From IMG/VR virus record IMGVR_UViG_3300025015_000010, positions 1-64,000 of that record: a stretch of 64,000 nt of DNA, one strand, 5' to 3'. Shown here piece by piece: positions 40,692 to 48,952 of this stretch. The notes under the pieces were generated by a model. The model was not told where the DNA came from. It ran no database searches and saw only the letters and a list, made by a program, of their open reading frames with translations. The translations under genes were made by a program, and so were the position numbers. Each line of letters starts with the position of its first letter. The stretch's first letter is position 1. Source of the DNA: a virus.

Positions 40692-40720
40692 TTGACATTA
40701 GCTCGCACAAGTGGTATAGT
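40692..40720 (+). promoter_or_regulatory. Strong sigma70 promoter heading the ncRNA/Ro60 locus
   Basis: TTGACA-17-TATAGT with TG extension. Confidence 0.8.
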
Positions 40721-40769: not shown

Positions 40770-41061
40770 ATAGCGCGTAGATCCATGGGCCATAGCGAGA
40801 ATCCTAACAAAAAGTGCTACCAAGGCACCTCTATCCTACCTGTAAGGAATCGGACTGAGCATGTATGGCGGTATTGGGCAAAGCTCGCAAAGGTCCAAGC
40901 TAGGGATTGGACAATAAGATCCTTGGAGCCGGGTGAAAACCTCACTTCGTGTGACAGCAGGAAACCTGCTTTCAATCCTATTAGCGATTCGTTACCAGTA
41001 TACTGTTCGGGTAACGTCACTCATTCATGATTGTCATAAATGGGTATGAGAAATTGAACGG
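40770..41061 (+). mobile_element. Orphan IS607 right end (tnpB 3' tail plus omegaRNA scaffold)
   Basis: Colinear, gap-free match to 48692-48983; the last 85 nt differ at one base; ends at ..gaaattgaacGG. Confidence 0.9.
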
Positions 41062-41099
41062 TTGCCATGTTAAAGTCCCGGAAACGGAACGAAATTAAC

Positions 41100-41357
41100 C
41101 TCTTGGTGCAGTACAGCGAAGTGAAAGCACAGGAATAATTCTAGTGGATATAGCCGTAATCTATAGTACGAGTTGGCCATAGTAACTATAGTTGTGAGCA
41201 AGGCTGCTAGATACGTTGGACGACAGACGGTGACCTATGCCGGAAATGTACTTTGCGCCTTAATTGGCGGCGTACGAGCAAGGCTGATTAATCGTCAGCC
41301 TACTTAGCCTTCTAAAGATGCCGTAGTTCGTGTCGGTGAAAGCCCGGCCACCGAGAG
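41100..41357 (+). ncRNA. Candidate ~258-nt structured RNA with a tRNA-like terminal stem and T-arm
   Basis: ctcttggtg/caccgagag terminal stem abutting gtcgg-tgaaagc-ccggc; internal hairpins; no ORF in the track. Confidence 0.55.
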
Positions 41358-41371
41358 TTTAATTTTAGAAT

Positions 41372-41440
41372 ACTGAACGAGACGCTTTTGCAGGGTTATC
41401 CTATGGAGATAAAATCCTGCATACTAATTTGCCGTTCAGT
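41372..41440 (+). ncRNA. Y-RNA-like element 1
   Basis: actgaacg/cgttcagt stem, tgcaggg/tcctgca stem, GGTTATC motif. Confidence 0.55.
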
Positions 41441-41449
41441 TTTGTTTGT

Positions 41450-41546
41450 GTGGTACGGATGTTTGGGTTACCTACTGAGAAGTGATCCTCTTTAACTGGA
41501 TCACAAATAACAAGTAACACCCTAGCCCAAGCAAACACTTGACCGC
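41450..41546 (+). ncRNA. Y-RNA-like element 2
   Basis: GTGGTACG...TTGACCGC Ro-binding-type stem; tgtttggg/cccaagca; GGTTACC. Confidence 0.75.
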
Positions 41547-41563
41547 TTCTACAAACGAATATC

Positions 41564-41637
41564 GTGGTACGAATGCTTTTGGTTACCTTCAAATGGAAGT
41601 GGCTTCGGTCACAGAGCCAAAACAACTACTTGACCAC
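41564..41637 (+). ncRNA. Y-RNA-like element 3
   Basis: GTGGTACG...TTGACCAC; ttttgg/ccaaaa; GGTTACC. Confidence 0.75.
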
Positions 41638-41663
41638 ATTATTTTAACCAGAGGAGATTATCG

Positions 41664-43313
41664 ATGTCGAGTTATTTGAAGACTGCTGCGAATCGTAATC
41701 AGAGTACTACACTCCAGACCGAACAGGCACGCGAAGACCAGGTAGTCAACAACGCTGGTGGTTATGTATTTAGCCAGGATGCTTGGTTGAAGGTGAGGTC
41801 GTTTCTTATTCTTGGTGCCGAAGGTGGTACTTACTATGTCGGCGAGAAAGAATTGACTAAGCAGAACACCACTAATTTGCAGGCTTGTCTCAAGGAAGAT
41901 GGGCCACGCTTGGTGCAGTTGATACGCGAGGTATCAGTTAACGGTCTGGCGTCCAAGCAGTCAGCTACCTTGTTTTCCTTGGCGCTAGCCGCTGCGGATG
42001 GTAATGCTGCTACTCGTACGGAAGTTTTGAAGGTACGCGACGAAATTCTGCGTACTGGTTCACATCTGGAAGAATTTGCCAGTTATTTGCTTGGGCTCGG
42101 CTCAAAGTCTTCTAGGTTTACTCGCAGGCTGCTCGGTGGTTGGTACAATAAGCCTATTGACGATCTTGCTTATCAGGCTGTCAAGTACCAGTCCCGTGAA
42201 GGCGTGAGTCACCGCGATATTTTGCGCGTCGCCCATCCCAGGCCAGCGAGTGCATCTCACGATCACTTGTTTAAGTGGGTTGTAGATGGTTCAGCAACAA
42301 CAAAGCCGGTTCCAGAAAAGTTTGCTAACAGAATCAATGTAAAAGCTTTGAAGTCTGTCTTGCAGTTACCAGCGATTGTACAAGCTTTCGAGCGGGCTAA
42401 GGCAGCAACTACTGATACCGAGATTGTGCAGCTTATTACAGAGCATAATCTTCCTCGCGAGTGTATTCCCACACAGTGGCTGAATTCGATTCCAGTGTGG
42501 GAAGCCTTATTGGCAAAGATGCCATTGACCGCGCTGATTCGTAATTTAGGGAAGATGTCTTCGGTCGGACTACTTAGGCCACTTAATGAGGCTTCTAAGC
42601 TGATTGTAGAGAAGCTTAATGACCAAGAGTACTTGACCAAGTCTAGGATTCATCCTATCGGTGTATTGTCGGCTCTGAAGACTTACGAAAGTGGTCACGG
42701 CGTTCGTGGTAAGCTATCTTGGGAACCAGTCAAGCAGGTAATTGATGCGTTGGATAGTGCGTTCTATAAGACGTTTAAGAATGTAGAACCCACTGGCAAG
42801 AACTTCCTACTAGCCTTAGACGTATCAGGTTCGATGGGTGAGGGAGATGTGGGTGGCGTACCTGGATTGAGTCCACGCGAAGCTTCTGCGGCTATGGCTC
42901 TAGTGACTGCTGCCACTGAACCAAACTACGAAATTTTTGGATTTTCAAATAGCTTTGTAAGACTTAATATTACACCCAGGATGCGCTTGGATCAGGCTAC
43001 GAAGGTCATTAGTAATCTGCCATTTGATGGCACAGATTGCTCATTACCAATTCAGTATGCAGATAGGCAGGGCTTAAACGTGGACACGTTTATTGTCTAT
43101 ACTGACAGCGAGACTTACACAGGCAGAATTCATCCGTTCCAGGCTCTCAAGAAGTACCGCGCTAAGACGGGTAAGTTTTCTAAATTGATCGTTGTTGGTA
43201 TGGTTTCCAATGGTTTTACGATTGCAGATCCAAATGACCGAGGCTCACTAGACGTAGTTGGTTTTGACTCATCTGTACCCGAGGTTATTAGGTCGTTTAC
43301 TCTAGCTCAGTAA
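41664..43313 (+). CDS. rsr: Ro60 / Rsr TROVE-domain RNA-binding protein with vWA domain
   Basis: NNAGGYVF, FLILG.EGGTYY, KYQSREG.SHRD.LR.AHP, MPLTALIRNLG, DVSGSM, YTDSET, DVVGFD. Confidence 0.95.
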   Translation: MSSYLKTAANRNQSTTLQTEQAREDQVVNNAGGYVFSQDAWLKVRSFLILGAEGGTYYVGEKELTKQNTTNLQACLKEDGPRLVQLIREVSVNGLASKQSATLFSLALAAADGNAATRTEVLKVRDEILRTGSHLEEFASYLLGLGSKSSRFTRRLLGGWYNKPIDDLAYQAVKYQSREGVSHRDILRVAHPRPASASHDHLFKWVVDGSATTKPVPEKFANRINVKALKSVLQLPAIVQAFERAKAATTDTEIVQLITEHNLPRECIPTQWLNSIPVWEALLAKMPLTALIRNLGKMSSVGLLRPLNEASKLIVEKLNDQEYLTKSRIHPIGVLSALKTYESGHGVRGKLSWEPVKQVIDALDSAFYKTFKNVEPTGKNFLLALDVSGSMGEGDVGGVPGLSPREASAAMALVTAATEPNYEIFGFSNSFVRLNITPRMRLDQATKVISNLPFDGTDCSLPIQYADRQGLNVDTFIVYTDSETYTGRIHPFQALKKYRAKTGKFSKLIVVGMVSNGFTIADPNDRGSLDVVGFDSSVPEVIRSFTLAQ

Positions 43314-43320
43314 AAGCATT

Positions 43321-43450
43321 AGTCGGTACGTCAGTACTGGGTTATCTTCTTAGGGAAGTGAGGCACAGGTTCGAATCCTGTCGGGTGACGCGAGTCACAC
43401 GTAGCTTAGTGGACAGAGCGCATTAGCTCCAGTACAGTATTTGACCGGCT
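43321..43450 (+). ncRNA. YrlA-type Y RNA (circularly permuted tRNA mimic)
   Basis: agtcggtacg...ttgaccggct stem; T-arm acagg-ttcgaat-cctgt precedes a closed acceptor-like hairpin and the D-arm tagcttagtggacagagc. Confidence 0.85.
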
Positions 43451-43457
43451 TTATTTT

Positions 43458-43588
43458 AGGCTGTACGTAGTTTTGGATTATCATCCAATCAGAAGGTTGT
43501 AGTTGTTACTACCATGGCATTCTATGCTGTGTAGCTCAAAAATAGAGCATCTGACAAAAAAAATATCTAAAGCAAAATTTGACAGCCT
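43458..43588 (+). ncRNA. Second YrlA-type Y RNA with a degenerate T-loop
   Basis: aggctgtacg...ttgacagcct; tcaga/tctga, gtagt/actac, catggcat/atgctgtg, tagctc-aaaaata-gagc. Confidence 0.75.
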
Positions 43589-43609: not shown

Positions 43610-43834
43610 ATGCTAATAATCTGTCAGCCAGATTTCGAAGGTAATATCAGGTCAGTGTACGTTGAGATTTGTGATCGACCTATATTCGATACGGACAAGG
43701 CATCCAAGTTAGCTCGTGTAGATTATACAAAGGATGGTATTGTAGTAGGCATTGAGCTAGTTGGTGGAATATCAAGAACAGCAATTGAGCGCGCTTTTAA
43801 GGTGGCTATAGAACAGTCATCAGTTAAGCAGTAA
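43610..43834 (+). CDS. DUF2283-like small protein
   Basis: VDYTKDGIVVGIELVG motif. Confidence 0.55.
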   Translation: MLIICQPDFEGNIRSVYVEICDRPIFDTDKASKLARVDYTKDGIVVGIELVGGISRTAIERAFKVAIEQSSVKQ

Positions 43835-43884
43835 CTTCGTGGTGTTCGTAAAACGGTTACTCGGATTTTGCTAGACTAATACAT

Positions 43885-43956
43885 TGCGGGGTGGAGCAGT
43901 GGCAGCTCAGAAGGCTCATAATCTTCAGATCGCAGGTTCGATTCCTGCCCCCGCTA
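43885..43956 (+). tRNA. tRNA-Met(CAT), initiator-like
   Basis: Cloverleaf; 1:72 mismatch, A11:U24; anticodon loop CTCATAA; CCA not encoded. Confidence 0.9.
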
Positions 43957-43969
43957 GAAATAAGGTAGA

Positions 43970-44044
43970 ATGGACGTACTAGGTTATACGATAGTGATTG
44001 CAGCATTCGCTGTGGCCATATTCTTAGCTCGCAAAGTACTATGA
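43970..44044 (+). CDS. 24-aa hydrophobic peptide
   Basis: MDVLGYTIVIAAFAVAIFLARKVL; SD aagg; abuts the GIY-YIG start. Confidence 0.45.
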   Translation: MDVLGYTIVIAAFAVAIFLARKVL

Positions 44045-44776
44045 GTGCTTATGATAGTGTCAGAGAATAAAGGCTCTCTTAATGTGAAAGTTTATGGCTT
44101 TATTTACCGTATTACTAATATAATAAACGGAAAGCACTATATAGGGCAGACACTTCGAACGGTGCAGAAACGATTTTCCAGTCATTGTTGGAATTCTATG
44201 CTAGAAAAGTGTAACATGCCGATAACAAGAGCTATACGAAAATATGGCAAGAATAATTTTGATCTAGTAACTTTATGCGAATGCGCTTCTCAACTAGAGC
44301 TAGATGAAATGGAAATTCGTTATGTCAAGGATTTGAAGACATTTGTTCCACACGGATATAATTTAAAAGCCGGTCAGGGTCGCGGAATTACATCTGAGAT
44401 AACTAAGAAACGTATAGGAGATGCAAACAGAGGTAAGAAAGTTGGTGTAGAAGCTAGGCAGCACATGTCAGATGCACATAAGGGCAAAAAATTATCGGAC
44501 ACACAGGTTCAGAAACTCAGGGATAAGTATAGAGGACGGCAGGTGAGTAGTTTGGGTCGGGTAGCTACTAGTTTAAAATCTGCTAAGACATTTTTATTCA
44601 TGGACCCACACGGTGTAATATTATGTATTCGTAATATGAGACAATATTGCGTTGATTATGGGCTCAGTCCATCAAAAATGTGTCTAGTGTCACAAGGAAA
44701 AAGAAATTATCATAAAGGATGGAGGATTTGTACTTCTGCGGTCATAATTGGCGACGCCATCTTAGTAGGTTGCTGA
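44045..44776 (+). CDS. GIY-YIG homing endonuclease with NUMOD3-like repeats
   Basis: GFIY...YIGQT, AIRKYG..NF, GYNL, MSDAHKGKKLS. Confidence 0.9.
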   Translation: MLMIVSENKGSLNVKVYGFIYRITNIINGKHYIGQTLRTVQKRFSSHCWNSMLEKCNMPITRAIRKYGKNNFDLVTLCECASQLELDEMEIRYVKDLKTFVPHGYNLKAGQGRGITSEITKKRIGDANRGKKVGVEARQHMSDAHKGKKLSDTQVQKLRDKYRGRQVSSLGRVATSLKSAKTFLFMDPHGVILCIRNMRQYCVDYGLSPSKMCLVSQGKRNYHKGWRICTSAVIIGDAILVGC

Positions 44777-45450: not shown

Positions 45451-45746
45451 GTCTTATAGGTAGTCATTTACGAGTACTGGTCACAGCATGGAATCTCAAG
45501 CGTCGAGGTTATCATGATTTTAGATTGTGTTCTAAGTGTGGCAAGAATCAGACAGGTTATGAGTTTATCGCTATGTGTAACGGCACGAGTCCAGATGATT
45601 GTCCCAACTGCGGCGGTGTAAACACATCAAAGCGTCCATGGCCTCTGCCTCAGATCGCTCGTGTAGAGGCTACGGGCGAGCCTATGATGCGAAAACTGGA
45701 AGGTCAAGAGTTGATCGAGGCTTGGAAAGTACTAGGTCCAGACTAA
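45447..45746 (+). CDS. Zinc-ribbon protein
   Basis: CSKCG...CPNCGG. Confidence 0.6.
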   Translation: MSLIGSHLRVLVTAWNLKRRGYHDFRLCSKCGKNQTGYEFIAMCNGTSPDDCPNCGGVNTSKRPWPLPQIARVEATGEPMMRKLEGQELIEAWKVLGPD

Positions 45747-46231
45747 TGGCTGATACACTCAACTCTATATGGTCTGGTACGACAACGCAGTATTGCACGG
45801 GTAAAGTCCCGATGTCGCCTAAAGTAACCAGAGTAGTCGTTAGTGCTATTATCCGCAGTCATGGCCAGATATTGATAGGCCAGCGGACTAAAGAGCCGTA
45901 CCAAGAAAAATATACATTTCCTGGTGGAAAGATTAATTTTCTTGAATCGTTGCAAGTCGCTTTAGCCCGTGAAGTCCACGAAGAAACAGGCTTGAGCATT
46001 AATCCAGCTAATGTCAAGCAGTTAGTGACATCGGAGTGGATTGATCCAGTAGATGAGATTCACTACATCGATGTGTTGTTCGAGGTTGTAGATTTTGATG
46101 GCGAGCCGAGAGCGGCCAGCGACATGTCCAGTTTGCAGTTTGTGGACGCAGGTCATTTGGCTGATTATGATCTAGCTCCTTATGCATACAAAACAGTCAG
46201 CGATCTGATTAAGATTGGATACCATTTTTGA
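45746..46231 (+). CDS. NUDIX hydrolase
   Basis: PGGKINFLESLQVALAREVHEETGL Nudix box. Confidence 0.9.
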   Translation: MADTLNSIWSGTTTQYCTGKVPMSPKVTRVVVSAIIRSHGQILIGQRTKEPYQEKYTFPGGKINFLESLQVALAREVHEETGLSINPANVKQLVTSEWIDPVDEIHYIDVLFEVVDFDGEPRAASDMSSLQFVDAGHLADYDLAPYAYKTVSDLIKIGYHF

Positions 46232-46926
46232 GCGACGAAACGACATTACGGGGCATGACTTCTTTATCATTTTTTTGCTACTTATTAGATGACGAGAGCG
46301 TACCACAGAAGATTAAGAATTTAGCCCGAGTATCTAGAATGTTACTGACTGTTATACCCAATCCAGAAGATATGACCGATGAGTTACAAGATTTCAAACA
46401 AGAAGCAGACGAATGCTATCAAATTTCTATAGACATTCTCGCGGACGTGATCCGAAAAGAATCACCCAAAGTTTGGGTTACGTTTCTTGACCGGATTCCA
46501 TCCGAGATTCAAGATGGCATAGCATTAGAGGGCAAGCCGTGATACAGACAGATGTAAAGATTGTGAAGGCAGTGTGTGATTCGTGTCACAAGACGCTTGT
46601 AGATAAGAAGTCGATACCGGGCGCGACGTTGCTGCATTACGCCGAATTGATACCTAGATTTGGTTATGGACACGAGCTAGATAATATCAACGATGGCGAG
46701 TACCATGTCTGTGGTAAGTGTTGGCAGCGAGTGCTGAAGTTGTTGGGATTATCGCGTGGCACATAGATTTGATGGTCGATGGAAGTGGTGTCCAGCGTGT
46801 AAAATACCTAGGATCAAATGTCTAGACCCAGACTGTTTTGGCCCGTCTTGTAATGGCGGCGGGTTCTCAACAGTAAATTAGAATCTACCCTTGAAACCCC
46901 CATCAATACAGTGGTAGACTTAATAT

Positions 46927-47499
46927 ATGAAGCTGAATGATTGGGCAAAGCTGCAAGGGATCACTTATAAAACAGCACATCGCTGGTTTCAAGCAGGTAT
47001 TATTCCTGATCCTGTAAGACAACTTCCAACAGGAACGATTCTGGTCGATGTCGAAAACATTACGAAAGTAGAAAATAGGACCGCGCTTTACGCCCGAGTT
47101 TCATCTTCTGGCCAGAAGGTTGATTTAGACCGACAAACATCAAGACTTATGAGTTTTGCACTCGAAAACAAACTGACCATTGTTGATTCTGTACAGGAAA
47201 TCGGCAGTGGTCTTAACGGACATCGCAAAAAGTTACTGAAGTTGCTGGCCGATAAAAGCATAAATACCATTGTTATAGAGCATCGAGAACGTCTTGCACG
47301 ATTTGGATTTGATTACATCGAAGCAGCCTTGGCCGCGACTGGGCGTAAGCTTGTAGTGATAGACAGCACTGAGATGAAAGACGATTTAGTTCAGGACATG
47401 ATTGATGTTTTGACATCATTTTGTGCAAGACTTTACGGACGCAGGTCCGCAAAGAACAAGGCAAAGAAAGCCATAGAAAGCATTCATGAGCAAGGATAG
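46927..47499 (+). CDS. tnpA: IS607 serine transposase
   Basis: MerR-type HTH, YARVSS..QK.DL.RQ, EH.ERLARFG, SFCARLYGRRS. Confidence 0.95.
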   Translation: MKLNDWAKLQGITYKTAHRWFQAGIIPDPVRQLPTGTILVDVENITKVENRTALYARVSSSGQKVDLDRQTSRLMSFALENKLTIVDSVQEIGSGLNGHRKKLLKLLADKSINTIVIEHRERLARFGFDYIEAALAATGRKLVVIDSTEMKDDLVQDMIDVLTSFCARLYGRRSAKNKAKKAIESIHEQG

Positions 47500-48952
47500 C
47501 ATTTCCACATTTCAGACTAGGATCGATTCATACCCAGCTTTACAGGCTTATGCAGACCGTCATAATCTGGTCGAGCACAAGTTGTACGCCCAGATATTAG
47601 CCGGTAAAAAGCCGAACAAACTTAAGCAAGCGTTCCTAGTTAAGTATGGCATTACGGCGCGACAATTCAATGCTATTGAGCGAAATCTACGCGGTAAAAT
47701 TAGCAGTGTTCAAGAACTTCGCAAGGACCATAAAAAGGAAACAAACTACAGGATCAAGGATTGTGAGCGCAAGATAGAATTTGTCAAGGACAATCTCAAA
47801 CAGCACAATTTGAAGCGCAGATTGCATGGCCTAAAAACCAGGTTGGCCAGGCTCGAACAGATGCCAAAATCCTTGTGTTTCGGGTCCAGGAAGTTGTTCA
47901 ACTCACAATTCGGTCCAGAAATAGATCATGATGTTTGGTCCAGTGATTGGAAACAGTCCCGTTCGAGTCAGTTCTATGTTCTCGGTTCTCACGAAGAAAC
48001 ATCAGGGTGCCAAGGATGTGTCGCTACTGTGCAGGACGACGGCAGCTTAACGCTACGTTTGCGCCTTCCAGATGCACTGATGGCCATCCATGGTAAGTAT
48101 ATTGAAATCCCCGGCGTGTACTTTAACCACGGCCATGAGCATGTACTACAGGCCCTGGCTTTGGGTAATACACCAACCAACTACAGGTTTAAGCTAGATG
48201 GCATTGGCTGGAGAGTCTTCGTTTCAGTTCACGTCATCGAAGCCAAAATTGTTACCAGGGACAGCCTGGGCAGAGTCGGTTTTGACCTTAATGAAGATCA
48301 CATCGCAGTTACCGAGACCGACCGTTTTGGAAATATAATCAACACGTTCAATGAGCCTGTAATAACCACAGACTTGACCACGCACCAGACATTGGCAGTC
48401 TTAGGCAATGCAGTTAAGAATATCGTAGCTTACGCCAAGAACGTTCAAAAGCCTATTGTTATTGAGAAGTTAGATTTCCAAAAGAAACGTGCTGAACTTC
48501 GTGGCCGAGGCCAAACTGCGAAGAATCTTAGTTCATTCGCGTACAGTAAATTCAGATCCATAGTCGTATCGCGTTGTCAGCGAGAAGGCATTAAGGTTTA
48601 CAACGTGAATCCGGCCTACACATCGATTATCGGTAGAAATAAGTTCGCGCTTCGGTACGGACTCACAGTACACAATGCAGCGGCGCTAACTATAGCACGT
48701 AGATCCATGGGCCTAAGTGAGAACCCAAATAAAAAGTGCTACCAAGGCACCTCTTTCCTACCTGTAAGGAATCGGACAGAGCATGTGTGGCGGTACTGGG
48801 CAAAACTCGCAAAGGCTCAAGCTAGGGATTGGGCCACAAGATCCTCGAAACCTGACGCAAATCACGTTTCGTGTGATAGCAGGAAACCTGCTCTCGGTCC
48901 TATTAGCGATTCGTTACCAGTATACTGTTCGGGTAACGTCACTCATTCGTGA
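47486..48952 (+). CDS. tnpB: TnpB-related RNA-guided nuclease
   Basis: RuvC-I GFDLN, RuvC-II VIEKL, VNPAYTS, RuvC-III HNAAALTIARR. Confidence 0.9.
   Translation: MSKDSISTFQTRIDSYPALQAYADRHNLVEHKLYAQILAGKKPNKLKQAFLVKYGITARQFNAIERNLRGKISSVQELRKDHKKETNYRIKDCERKIEFVKDNLKQHNLKRRLHGLKTRLARLEQMPKSLCFGSRKLFNSQFGPEIDHDVWSSDWKQSRSSQFYVLGSHEETSGCQGCVATVQDDGSLTLRLRLPDALMAIHGKYIEIPGVYFNHGHEHVLQALALGNTPTNYRFKLDGIGWRVFVSVHVIEAKIVTRDSLGRVGFDLNEDHIAVTETDRFGNIINTFNEPVITTDLTTHQTLAVLGNAVKNIVAYAKNVQKPIVIEKLDFQKKRAELRGRGQTAKNLSSFAYSKFRSIVVSRCQREGIKVYNVNPAYTSIIGRNKFALRYGLTVHNAAALTIARRSMGLSENPNKKCYQGTSFLPVRNRTEHVWRYWAKLAKAQARDWATRSSKPDANHVSCDSRKPALGPISDSLPVYCSGNVTHS

What the first reader, a model, noticed from the sequence alone, without database searches (positions are those of the whole stretch)
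41372..43588. Phage Ro60 flanked by an array of five diversified Y-RNA-like cassettes with a constant handle and variable payload
Seen: three short elements upstream of rsr (41372-41440, 41450-41546, 41564-41637) and two downstream (43321-43450, 43458-43588) share one architecture. A terminal stem with 5' GT-ACG and 3' TTG-AC (looser in element 1) leads into a second stem ending in GG(T/A)TA(T/C)C, followed by a different insert in each. The two downstream inserts are circularly permuted tRNAs (T-arm, closed acceptor hairpin, then D-arm). Established: this stem resembles the Ro60-binding stem of Y RNAs, YrlA RNAs are tRNA mimics, and a few phages carry Ro60 with Y RNAs. Inference: a modular set of adaptor or decoy RNAs that lets one phage Ro60 tether different effectors or absorb tRNA-targeting toxins. 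No rtcB or PNPase is present in the window.
Basis: partly seen in the sequence, partly recalled or inferred. Interest (0 to 1): 0.85.

Follow-up and report, generated by a model that had tools for sequence, protein, structure and literature searches.

The report
Phage Ro60 gene with five Y RNAs
A large uncultured groundwater phage carries a Ro60 RNA-binding protein gene flanked by five small partner RNA genes (Y RNAs) that share one docking handle but have different interiors; this is a real and well-conserved example of a system already known from bacteria, phages and animals.

Summary
ORF 41664-43313 is a canonical Ro60/Rsr. Three elements upstream and two downstream share a terminal stem, a bulged GU[A]CG/UUGAC helix, a second stem and a G(G/A)UUAYC motif. 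That combination occurs nowhere else in the 169-kb genome.

A relative with 90% identical Ro60 (L004) keeps all five in order. They are 77-93% identical while rsr third codon positions are 54%. Of 24 changed base pairs, none is broken and 8 are compensatory.

A covariance model built only from other phages' Ro60 loci finds element 4 at E 1.6e-10 and element 5 at E 4e-4. Elements 1-3 match a short-Y-RNA model only weakly. No element reaches an Rfam gathering score.

These are Y RNAs: two of the YrlA tRNA-mimic class (element 5 degenerate) and three short ones. The kind is known (Chen 2014; Thermus phage phiLo 2025).

Five is not exceptional. Among 85 other phage Ro60 loci, at least seven carry 5-7 such RNAs, one of them split around the gene. 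This scan has also noted such arrays on other DNA.

The handle is the vertebrate Y RNA / nematode sbRNA scaffold, UUAUC included.

Expression and Ro60 binding are untested. The toxin-decoy idea is weak, because the mimics have no anticodon arm and no free acceptor end.

The parts
41372..41440 (+). [quoted passage not shown] It has an 8-bp terminal stem, then G[A]CG/UUUGC, a second stem UGCAGG/CCUGCA and GGGUUAUCC.
   Evidence: Fold z -3.83. Sub-threshold Rfam YrlB match of 22.3 bits over the full model. 93% identical in L004, with one A-U to G-U change and no broken pair. Weak hit of the short-Y model R2, 10.8 bits.
41450..41546 (+). Y RNA element 2: short class. Handle GUGGU[A]CG...CUUGACCGC, second stem UGUUUGGG/CCCAAGCA, GGGUUACC. 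Its interior holds a 39-nt hairpin that the L004 copy lacks.
   Evidence: Fold z -3.02. Four one-sided compatible changes and no broken pair. The payload indel is seen. The L004 copy hits R2 at 15 bits.
41564..41637 (+). Y RNA element 3: short class. Handle GUGGU[A]CGAAUG...ACUUGACCAC, UGGUUACC, then a CUUC/GAAG hairpin shared with el4 and a UUCG-capped hairpin.
   Evidence: 89% identical in L004, three compatible changes, none broken. R2 15-17 bits and R1 18.6 bits. The L004 copy folds with z -3.32.
41664..43313 (+). rsr: Ro60 ortholog, 549 aa, TROVE ring plus vWA domain with a DxSxS MIDAS motif. An RBS (GGAG) lies at 41652-41655.
   Evidence: Pfam TROVE 7.5e-36 and vWA_Ro60 3.1e-63. PDB sequence matches: 9NEN Ro60 1.1e-121, Xenopus 1YVP 1.8e-116, D. 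radiodurans Rsr 2NVO 1.6e-110.
43321..43450 (+). Y RNA element 4: YrlA-class tRNA mimic. Terminal stem AGUCGGU/ACCGGCU, bulged helix [A]CG/UUUG, second stem CAGUACUGG/CCAGUACAG, GGGUUAUC, V hairpin, T arm, closed acceptor-like hairpin, D arm.
   Evidence: R1 (built from other phages only) 62.9 bits, E 1.6e-10, full length. Rfam YrlA 23.1 bits and Y_RNA 19.8 bits, both below gathering. Two compensatory pairs in the acceptor hairpin. L004 has deleted both strands of the second stem together.
43458..43588 (+). Y RNA element 5: degenerate YrlA-class RNA. Terminal stem AGGCUGU/ACAGCCU, [A]CG/UUUG, second stem, GGAUUAUC, an inner UCAGA/UCUGA stem closing a three-way junction (short hairpin, 8-bp acceptor-like hairpin, D-arm-like hairpin). 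A U-run follows.
   Evidence: Fold z -4.60 and -4.18 for the L004 copy. Six compensatory and five one-sided changes, none broken. R1 30.7 bits, E 4e-4. The L004 copy scores 30.5 bits with Rfam YrlA.

Best explanation
This is a phage-borne Ro60 (rsr) module with five Y RNA genes on the same strand: three short ones upstream and two YrlA-type tRNA-like ones downstream.

Shown: the protein is a canonical Ro60. All five RNAs share the Y RNA scaffold (paired ends, bulged CG/UUG helix, upper stem, UUAYC motif). They are under purifying selection and their stems are kept by compensatory changes. el4 and el5 belong to an RNA family that accompanies Ro60 genes in many other phages.

Inferred: the RNAs are made with rsr as one or a few precursors. 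The spacers are only 7-26 nt. A strong sigma-70-like promoter lies at 40692, and the relative L004 has one just upstream of el1. The precursors would be cut into RNAs of about 70-130 nt. Each RNA would dock by its bulged lower helix on the outer face of the Ro60 ring, as in the Xenopus Ro60-Y RNA complex. Its interior would then either gate the ring's central cavity or tether the ring to a host partner. The likeliest partner is a 3'-5' exoribonuclease such as PNPase, which the phage record does not encode. The tRNA-like module could also recruit tRNA-recognising enzymes. The net effect would be to redirect structured-RNA decay or quality control during infection.
For: Ro60 identity.

Handle specificity: 4 matches against 0.12 expected, and the full handle is unique in the genome.

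Conservation: the elements are 77-93% identical to L004, against 54% at rsr third codon positions. Homology between the two contigs starts exactly at el1.

Structure: 129 predicted pairs, of which 105 are unchanged, 16 changed on one side, 8 compensatory and 0 broken. Both strands of el4's second stem are deleted together in L004.

Family: model R1, built from 12 RNAs of other phage Ro60 loci in which 19 of 21 pairs covary, finds el4 at E 1.6e-10 and el5 at E 4e-4. All 142 hits of R1 and R2 in 85 other loci lie on the Ro60 strand.

Precedent: Y RNAs lie within 4 kb of Ro60 on the same strand, are processed from polycistronic precursors, and come at least two per species, one tRNA-like and one a long hairpin (PMC4201824). 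Thermus phage phiLo Ro60 binds two upstream Yrl RNAs and host PNPase (PMC12135203).
Against: No element reaches an Rfam gathering score: YrlA 23.1 against 69, YrlB 22.3 against 97, Y_RNA 19.8 against 38.

el1-3 get only weak scores from the independent short-Y model (E 0.13-3).

Covariation rests on a single close relative.

The host, and therefore the partner nuclease, is unknown.

The bulged base is A, where other phages and animals have C or U. Its effect on Ro60 binding is unknown.
Confidence: 0.85

Rival explanations
1. el1-3 and el4-5 act in cis as structured leader and trailer of the rsr mRNA rather than as free small RNAs. Ro60 would bind its own transcript at Y-like handles to autoregulate translation or stability.
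For: Spacers are very short. el3 ends 26 nt before the ATG with the RBS in between, and el4 starts 8 nt after the stop codon. The consensus scan finds no hairpin terminator or strong promoter between the elements.
Against: Each element is a self-closed unit with its own terminal stem. The same RNA classes lie at variable distances and in variable numbers beside Ro60 in other phages. Bacterial Y RNAs in the same arrangement are known to be cut out of polycistronic precursors and to accumulate as free RNAs (PMC4201824).
Confidence: 0.07
2. Only el4 (and perhaps el5) is a working Y RNA. el1-3 are decaying duplicates without function.
For: el1-3 score only 9-19 bits with the independent models. 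el2 lost or gained a 39-nt interior hairpin between close relatives.
Against: el1-3 are 81-93% identical to L004 where synonymous sites are about 54% identical. All 8 changed pairs in them stay paired. A short long-hairpin Y RNA next to a tRNA-like one is the rule in characterised bacteria (PMC4201824) and in other phage loci.
Confidence: 0.07
3. The tRNA-like elements mainly serve as decoys that absorb host tRNA-targeting defence nucleases; this is the first reader's second option.
For: el4 carries a near-canonical T arm and D arm. The phage invests in tRNAs (5 in the record) and in RNA ligase-family genes elsewhere.
Against: The anticodon arm, the target of the known anticodon nucleases, is replaced by the Ro60-binding stem. 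The acceptor end is closed by a loop, so there is no CCA end. el5 lacks a T-loop. The handle shared by all five points to Ro60 docking as the common function.
Confidence: 0.05
4. The repeated TTGAC motifs are -35 promoter boxes, and the similarity among the elements is a by-product of tandem promoters.
For: The scan lists weak promoter-like sites that use these hexamers: window 43551 CTGACA and L004 2876 TTGACC.
Against: The number of promoter-like sites equals what shuffled sequence gives (6 against 5.5; 4 against 3.6). The TTGAC always pairs with a GUACG 60-125 nt upstream, and that pairing is kept by covariation.
Confidence: 0.02

Closest known systems
YrlA (Rfam RF02553): tRNA-mimicking Y RNA of Salmonella, Mycobacterium smegmatis and mycobacteriophages (Chen et al. 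2014, PMC4201824)
   Same: It is encoded next to Ro60 on the same strand. Its ends pair into the Ro60-binding stem, and its interior reads V hairpin, T arm, closed acceptor-like stem, D arm. el4 aligns over the whole Rfam model, and it matches a model built from other phages' YrlA-like RNAs at E 1.6e-10.
   Different: el4 scores only 23 bits against the Rfam gathering score of 69. The published motif GNCGAAN0-1G reads GUACGUCAG in el4. el4 and el5 lie downstream of rsr. el5 has lost the T-loop.
YrlB of Salmonella and M. smegmatis, and Yrn2 of Deinococcus radiodurans: the 'long hairpin with a small loop' Y RNAs
   Same: el1-3 are short (69-97 nt), lack a tRNA-like domain and lie upstream of rsr beside tRNA-like Y RNAs. 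el1 aligns end to end with Rfam YrlB, including the GGAUUAC-like motif.
   Different: The Rfam score is far below threshold (22 against 97). There are three such RNAs instead of one, with different interiors.
Thermus phage phiLo Ro60 with Yrl1 and Yrl2 (PMC12135203, 2025)
   Same: A phage Ro60 with Y RNA-like genes beside it, and no phage PNPase, so a host partner is implied.
   Different: phiLo has two RNAs, both upstream. Its Ro60 is very distant from this one (E 6e-7, against 1e-121 for the best Ro60 chain).
Vertebrate Y RNAs (Rfam RF00019) and nematode stem-bulge RNAs (RF01656)
   Same: The handle is nearly the same. The window has GGU[A]CG...UGGGUUAUC...AUUUGACC. The vertebrate consensus is GGUCCGA..GUGGGUUAU...ACUUGACU. 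The sbRNA consensus is GGUCCGG..UGGGUUAUC...ACUUGACC. The UUAUC motif is a known conserved feature of sbRNAs and vertebrate Y RNAs (PMC4726728). The Ro60 protein is also closest to the animal type.
   Different: The bulged base is A, not C. The interiors are bacterial-type (tRNA-like). The window elements do not reach either Rfam threshold.
Multi-Y-RNA arrays beside Ro60 in other uncultured phages
   Same: They hold five to seven same-strand RNAs with one handle and different interiors, short and tRNA-like ones mixed. L040 is split into 2 upstream and 3 downstream, like the window.
   Different: Their handle is GG[C/U]CG...UUG(C/U)C, with a G-C or G-U pair and a bulged pyrimidine. The window lineage has a U-A pair and a bulged A.

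Membership tests
Y RNA (functional class: Ro60-bound small RNAs) | Encoded close to a Ro60 ortholog and on the same strand (within 4 kb in bacteria and phages) | tested here: met
   All five lie within 300 nt of rsr on the + strand.
Y RNA (functional class: Ro60-bound small RNAs) | 5' and 3' ends pair into a long stem that contains a conserved bulged helix, the Ro60 site (GGUCCGA/UUGACU type) | tested here: met
   Folds. The anchored table shows 5-8 bp terminal stems next to [A]CG/UUG. el1 needs one extra bulge.
Y RNA (functional class: Ro60-bound small RNAs) | Physical binding to Ro60 and Ro60-dependent accumulation | not testable with these tools
   This needs RIP or EMSA.
Y RNA (functional class: Ro60-bound small RNAs) | Discrete transcript of about 70-130 nt | not testable with these tools
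   Predicted sizes are 69-131 nt. No expression data could be obtained.
YrlA (Rfam RF02553) | Score at or above the curated gathering threshold (69 bits) | tested here: not met
   el4 scores 23.1 bits and the L004 el5 30.5 bits. By Rfam's own cut-off these are not members of the seed-defined family.
YrlA (Rfam RF02553) | Interior order V hairpin, T arm, closed acceptor-like stem, D arm, with the Ro60 stem in place of the anticodon arm | tested here: met
   el4 aligns to the full model with T, acceptor-like and D stems in place. For el5 this is only partly met: the T hairpin lacks a T-loop.
Phage YrlA-like RNAs beside Ro60 (model R1, built here from 12 other loci) | Significant full-length match to a covariance model that does not include the window lineage | tested here: met
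   el4 62.9 bits, E 1.6e-10. el5 30.7 bits, E 4e-4. The L004 copies score 50.5 and 30.1 bits.
Short phage Y RNAs beside Ro60 (model R2, built here from 18 other RNAs) | Significant full-length match to the model | tested here: inconclusive
   el3 scores 15-17 bits, el2 15 bits and el1 10.8 bits (E 0.13-3). None is significant alone, but these are four of the five best hits in 71.6 kb and all are full length. The model's invariant GGCCG/UUGCC is GUACG/UUGAC here.
YrlB (Rfam RF02565) | Score at or above the gathering threshold (97 bits) | tested here: not met
   el1 scores 22.3 bits.
Vertebrate Y RNA (Rfam RF00019) | Score at or above the gathering threshold (38 bits) | tested here: not met
   el4 scores 19.8 bits, E 1.1. 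The resemblance is limited to the handle.

The most novel reading that the evidence does not exclude
Phage Ro60 genes commonly come with expandable sets of 5-7 or more Y RNAs. All are built on the complete animal-type Y/sbRNA scaffold (bulged lower helix, upper stem, UUAUC). Their interiors are swapped, shortened or replaced even between close relatives; here, el2's 39-nt hairpin and el4's second stem differ between the window and L004. If so, two things follow. The UUAUC motif, so far tied to DNA replication in animals, would be an ancient Ro60-linked part of the scaffold. And phages would use one Ro60 ring with a repertoire of adaptor RNAs that aim it at different host partners.
Probability: 0.3. 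Interest if true: 0.6.

Novelty: new member of a known kind. Interest (0 to 1): 0.38.

Why it matters
It adds a clean, well-conserved case of a phage Ro60 with five partner RNAs. The published phage example has two, and characterised bacteria have two or a few.

Together with the survey made here, it shows that multi-RNA sets with one handle and varied interiors are common beside phage Ro60 genes.

It also shows that the phage handle is almost the animal Y RNA / nematode sbRNA handle, UUAUC included. That bears on whether bacterial or phage Y RNAs and animal Y RNAs are homologous.

For this one locus the practical value is modest. It gives a natural set of five RNAs, plus natural deletion variants in L004, for testing what Ro60 recognises and what the different interiors recruit.

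Tried and rejected
- Rfam at gathering thresholds found only tRNAs in the window.
The contigs of P0002 and P0003 (about 100% and 90% identical Ro60) could therefore not be fetched, and covariation rests on L004 alone.
- An exact-pattern scan of IMG/VR for the el2/el3 handle found nothing.
- The single-protein scans of the viral and metagenome collections gave only distant Ro60 loci besides L004.
- A loose generic stem scanner was too noisy (169 hits on the + strand against 145 on the - strand). It was replaced by motif-anchored scans and then by Infernal models.
- MFE and alifold folding of el4 did not recover the cloverleaf-like interior. The model alignments did.
- Two review papers (PMC10870794, PMC6047535) are not held, and the supplementary phage table of Chen 2014 is not held. 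Whether arrays of five or more have been described there could not be checked.
- The tandem-promoter reading of the TTGAC motifs was rejected.
Full report
**What is there**

The window is the first 64 kb of a 168,734-bp IMG/VR virus record, estimated about 77% complete. It is a large phage with DNA polymerase, helicase and ribonucleotide reductase genes.

ORF 41664-43313 (+) is a canonical Ro60/Rsr. Pfam gives TROVE 7.5e-36 and the Ro60 vWA domain 3.1e-63. By sequence it matches solved Ro60 chains very strongly: 9NEN 1.1e-121, Xenopus 1YVP 1.8e-116 and D. radiodurans Rsr 2NVO 1.6e-110. It matches the only solved phage Ro60 (phiLo, 9KOP) at just 5.9e-7.

**The five elements**

Each folds with its two ends paired, and so do the copies in the relative L004.

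Anchoring on the invariant CG and UUG gives the common plan:
- a terminal stem of 5-8 bp;
- a bulged helix, 5'-(U)[A]CG / UUG(A)-3';
- a short internal loop;
- a second stem;
- G(G/A)UUAYC at the start of the interior.

el1 has G[A]CG / UUUGC instead. A G-C pair replaces the U-A pair of the others, and one extra unpaired A sits above a perfect 8-bp stem.

The pattern GTACG-N2-12-GRTTAYC has four matches in 64 kb, all at el2-5, against 0.12 expected. The full three-part handle is found nowhere else on either strand of the 169-kb genome.

**Selection and structure**

One close relative could be fetched: L004, a 9.5-kb metagenome contig whose Ro60 is 90% identical. It holds all five elements in the same order.

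Similarity between the two contigs begins exactly at the first base of el1. The 340 nt upstream are unrelated.

The elements are 93, 81, 89, 88 and 77% identical. rsr third codon positions are only 54% identical, and first and second positions 90 and 95%. The RNAs are therefore under purifying selection about as strong as that on the protein.

The consensus folds hold 129 pairs. Of these, 105 are unchanged, 16 changed on one side and stay paired, 8 changed on both sides and stay paired, and none is broken. The compensatory changes sit in the acceptor-like hairpin of el4 and in four different stems of el5.

Two indels are informative. L004 lacks a 39-nt hairpin inside el2. L004 has also lost both strands of el4's second stem (8 nt on the 5' side, 14 nt on the 3' side) while keeping the terminal bulged helix.

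**Family**

Rfam's curated thresholds are not reached. The best sub-threshold matches are the right families over their full length: YrlA on el4 (23.1 bits), YrlB on el1 (22.3), Y_RNA on el4 (19.8), and YrlA on the L004 el5 (30.5).

To test membership independently, I fetched 80 other phage Ro60 loci from IMG/VR and built two covariance models that exclude the window lineage.

R1 was built from 12 tRNA-like RNAs; 19 of its 21 consensus pairs covary. It finds:
- el4 at 62.9 bits, E 1.6e-10;
- the L004 el4 at 50.5 bits;
- el5 at 30.7 bits, E 4e-4;
- the L004 el5 at 30.1 bits.

All four alignments are full length.

R2 was built from 18 short RNAs. It gives only weak scores to el3, el2 and el1 (17-11 bits, E 0.13-3). 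Still, these are four of the five best hits in 71.6 kb, and the alignments show the same layout. The low scores follow from the lineage's own handle, GUACG/UUGAC, where the model has an invariant GGCCG/UUGCC.

I therefore file el4 as a YrlA-class Y RNA and el5 as a degenerate member of that class. Its 'T' hairpin has a 4-5 nt loop and no T-loop sequence. el1-3 are short Y RNAs by architecture, position and conservation, with model support that is suggestive only.

**How unusual is it**

Ro60 is common in phages: 364 deposited records and 384 IMG/VR stretches encode it.

In 85 other loci, all 73 R1 hits (E<1e-3) and all 69 R2 hits (E<1e-2) lie on the Ro60 strand, in its flanks.

Merging overlapping hits gives these array sizes:
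- L088 and L049: 7 each;
- L029 and L039: 6 each (L029 read by eye);
- L038, L042 and L040: 5 each;
- cultured Mycobacterium phage Tonenili: 3.

L040 is split into two upstream and three downstream, like the window. A simpler motif count agrees: 12 of 84 loci have five or more 5' half-handles on the Ro60 strand, while the opposite strand never has more than two.

Five Y RNAs is therefore at the upper end but not exceptional. 'Constant handle, variable interior' is the general design.

What is particular to this lineage is the U-A pair plus bulged A. Other phages have G-C or G-U plus a bulged C or U.

Notes of this scan list similar 4-10-RNA sets beside Ro60-like genes on other DNA. They are unchecked leads, and I did not rely on them.

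**What is known in print**

Chen et al. 2014 (PMC4201824) found YrlA-like RNAs within 4 kb of Ro60, on the same strand, in 254 bacteria and 22 phages. They described the V/T/acceptor/D layout. [quoted passage not shown] Thermus phage phiLo Ro60 binds two upstream Yrl RNAs and host PNPase (PMC12135203).

**A point worth noting**

The phage handle is almost the animal one.
- Phage consensus: GGGCCGAAG..AGGGUUAUC...ACUUGCCC.
- Vertebrate Y RNA consensus: GGUCCGA..GUGGGUUAU...ACUUGACU.
- Nematode sbRNA consensus: GGUCCGG..UGGGUUAUC...ACUUGACC.

One short phage RNA (L037 1160-1233) reaches the sbRNA family's gathering score, 38.1 against 38.

The UUAUC motif is described as conserved in sbRNAs and vertebrate Y RNAs and needed for their DNA-replication activity. 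The same review calls bacterial Y RNAs not homologous to the vertebrate clades (PMC4726728). I did not find the motif discussed for bacterial or phage Y RNAs in the papers I could read, but two key reviews are not held.

**Mechanism**

Shown: gene identity, shared scaffold, selection, covariation and family membership of el4 and el5.

Inferred, by analogy with Xenopus, Deinococcus, Salmonella and phiLo:
- The RNAs are co-transcribed with rsr. A strong promoter-like site lies at 40692-40720, and L004 has TTGACT-17-TAGACT ending 7 nt before el1.
- The transcript is processed into separate RNAs.
- Each RNA docks by its lower helix on the outside of the Ro60 ring.
- Its interior gates the cavity or tethers a partner.

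The record encodes no RtcB and no RNase PH/PNPase domain, so a host partner is implied. Two or three RNA-ligase-family genes lie far away.

The decoy idea is weak, because the mimics have no anticodon arm and a closed acceptor end.

**Limits**

- There is no expression or binding evidence.
- Only one close relative was available.
- E-values of the home-built models are rough.

**Verdict**

The finding is real and correctly recognised. It is a new member of a known kind, and interest is moderate.

Noticed in passing
L037:1160-1233 (also L051:1165-1294, L046:842-911): Short Y-like RNAs beside phage Ro60 genes hit the nematode stem-bulge RNA family RF01656. One reaches its gathering score (38.1 bits against 38). 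The phage consensus handle, including GGGUUAUC, is nearly that of sbRNAs and vertebrate Y RNAs.
   Followed up: partly
L097:1099-1447 (Mycobacterium phage Tonenili, NC_031080.1, about 133684-134032): Three predicted Y RNAs lie upstream of the annotated Ro60 gene. No RNA is annotated there. The annotated hypothetical CDS gp136 (locus 1152-1292) overlaps two of them, so it is probably not a real gene.
   Followed up: no
L029:674-1469: Six tandem Y RNAs lie upstream of Ro60. Each is preceded by a CTAGACT -10-like box. The fifth (about 1216-1361) also carries an anticodon-like loop CUCAUAA, so it looks like a nearly whole permuted tRNA-Met.
   Followed up: partly
L004:2634-2715: A GGTACG...CTTGAC stretch of 82 nt with two internal hairpins lies just upstream of el1 in the relative only. 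It could be a degenerate sixth element, but its TTGAC is also the -35 box of the promoter-like site at L004 2711-2739.
   Followed up: no
L004:4920-5369: The relative has an extra 149-aa ORF (no Pfam match) inserted between el5 and the conserved 74-aa ORF. The window goes straight from el5 to that ORF (43610-43834).
   Followed up: partly
window 41030-41371: A 340-nt non-coding stretch lies between a small ORF and el1. It has no counterpart in L004, where homology starts exactly at el1. Another reader of this scan noted it as a possible structured RNA. A strong promoter-like site lies further upstream at 40692-40720.
   Followed up: no
window 43884-44776: tRNA-Met (CAU) lies at 43884-43957, directly followed by a GIY-YIG homing-endonuclease-like ORF at 44045-44776. 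The tRNA is also present in L004 (5833-5904).
   Followed up: no
window 45599-48952: A NUDIX hydrolase gene (45599-46231) and an IS607-like pair (serine resolvase 46927-47499, TnpB/Cas12f-like 47486-48952) lie downstream of the Ro60 module.
   Followed up: no
window 41581-41602 and 43340-43361: el3 and el4 share GGUUAYCUUC-N4-GGAAGUG right after the handle. el3 therefore looks like el4 with the tRNA-like domain replaced by a UUCG-capped hairpin, which suggests the set arose by tandem duplication and interior replacement.
   Followed up: partly
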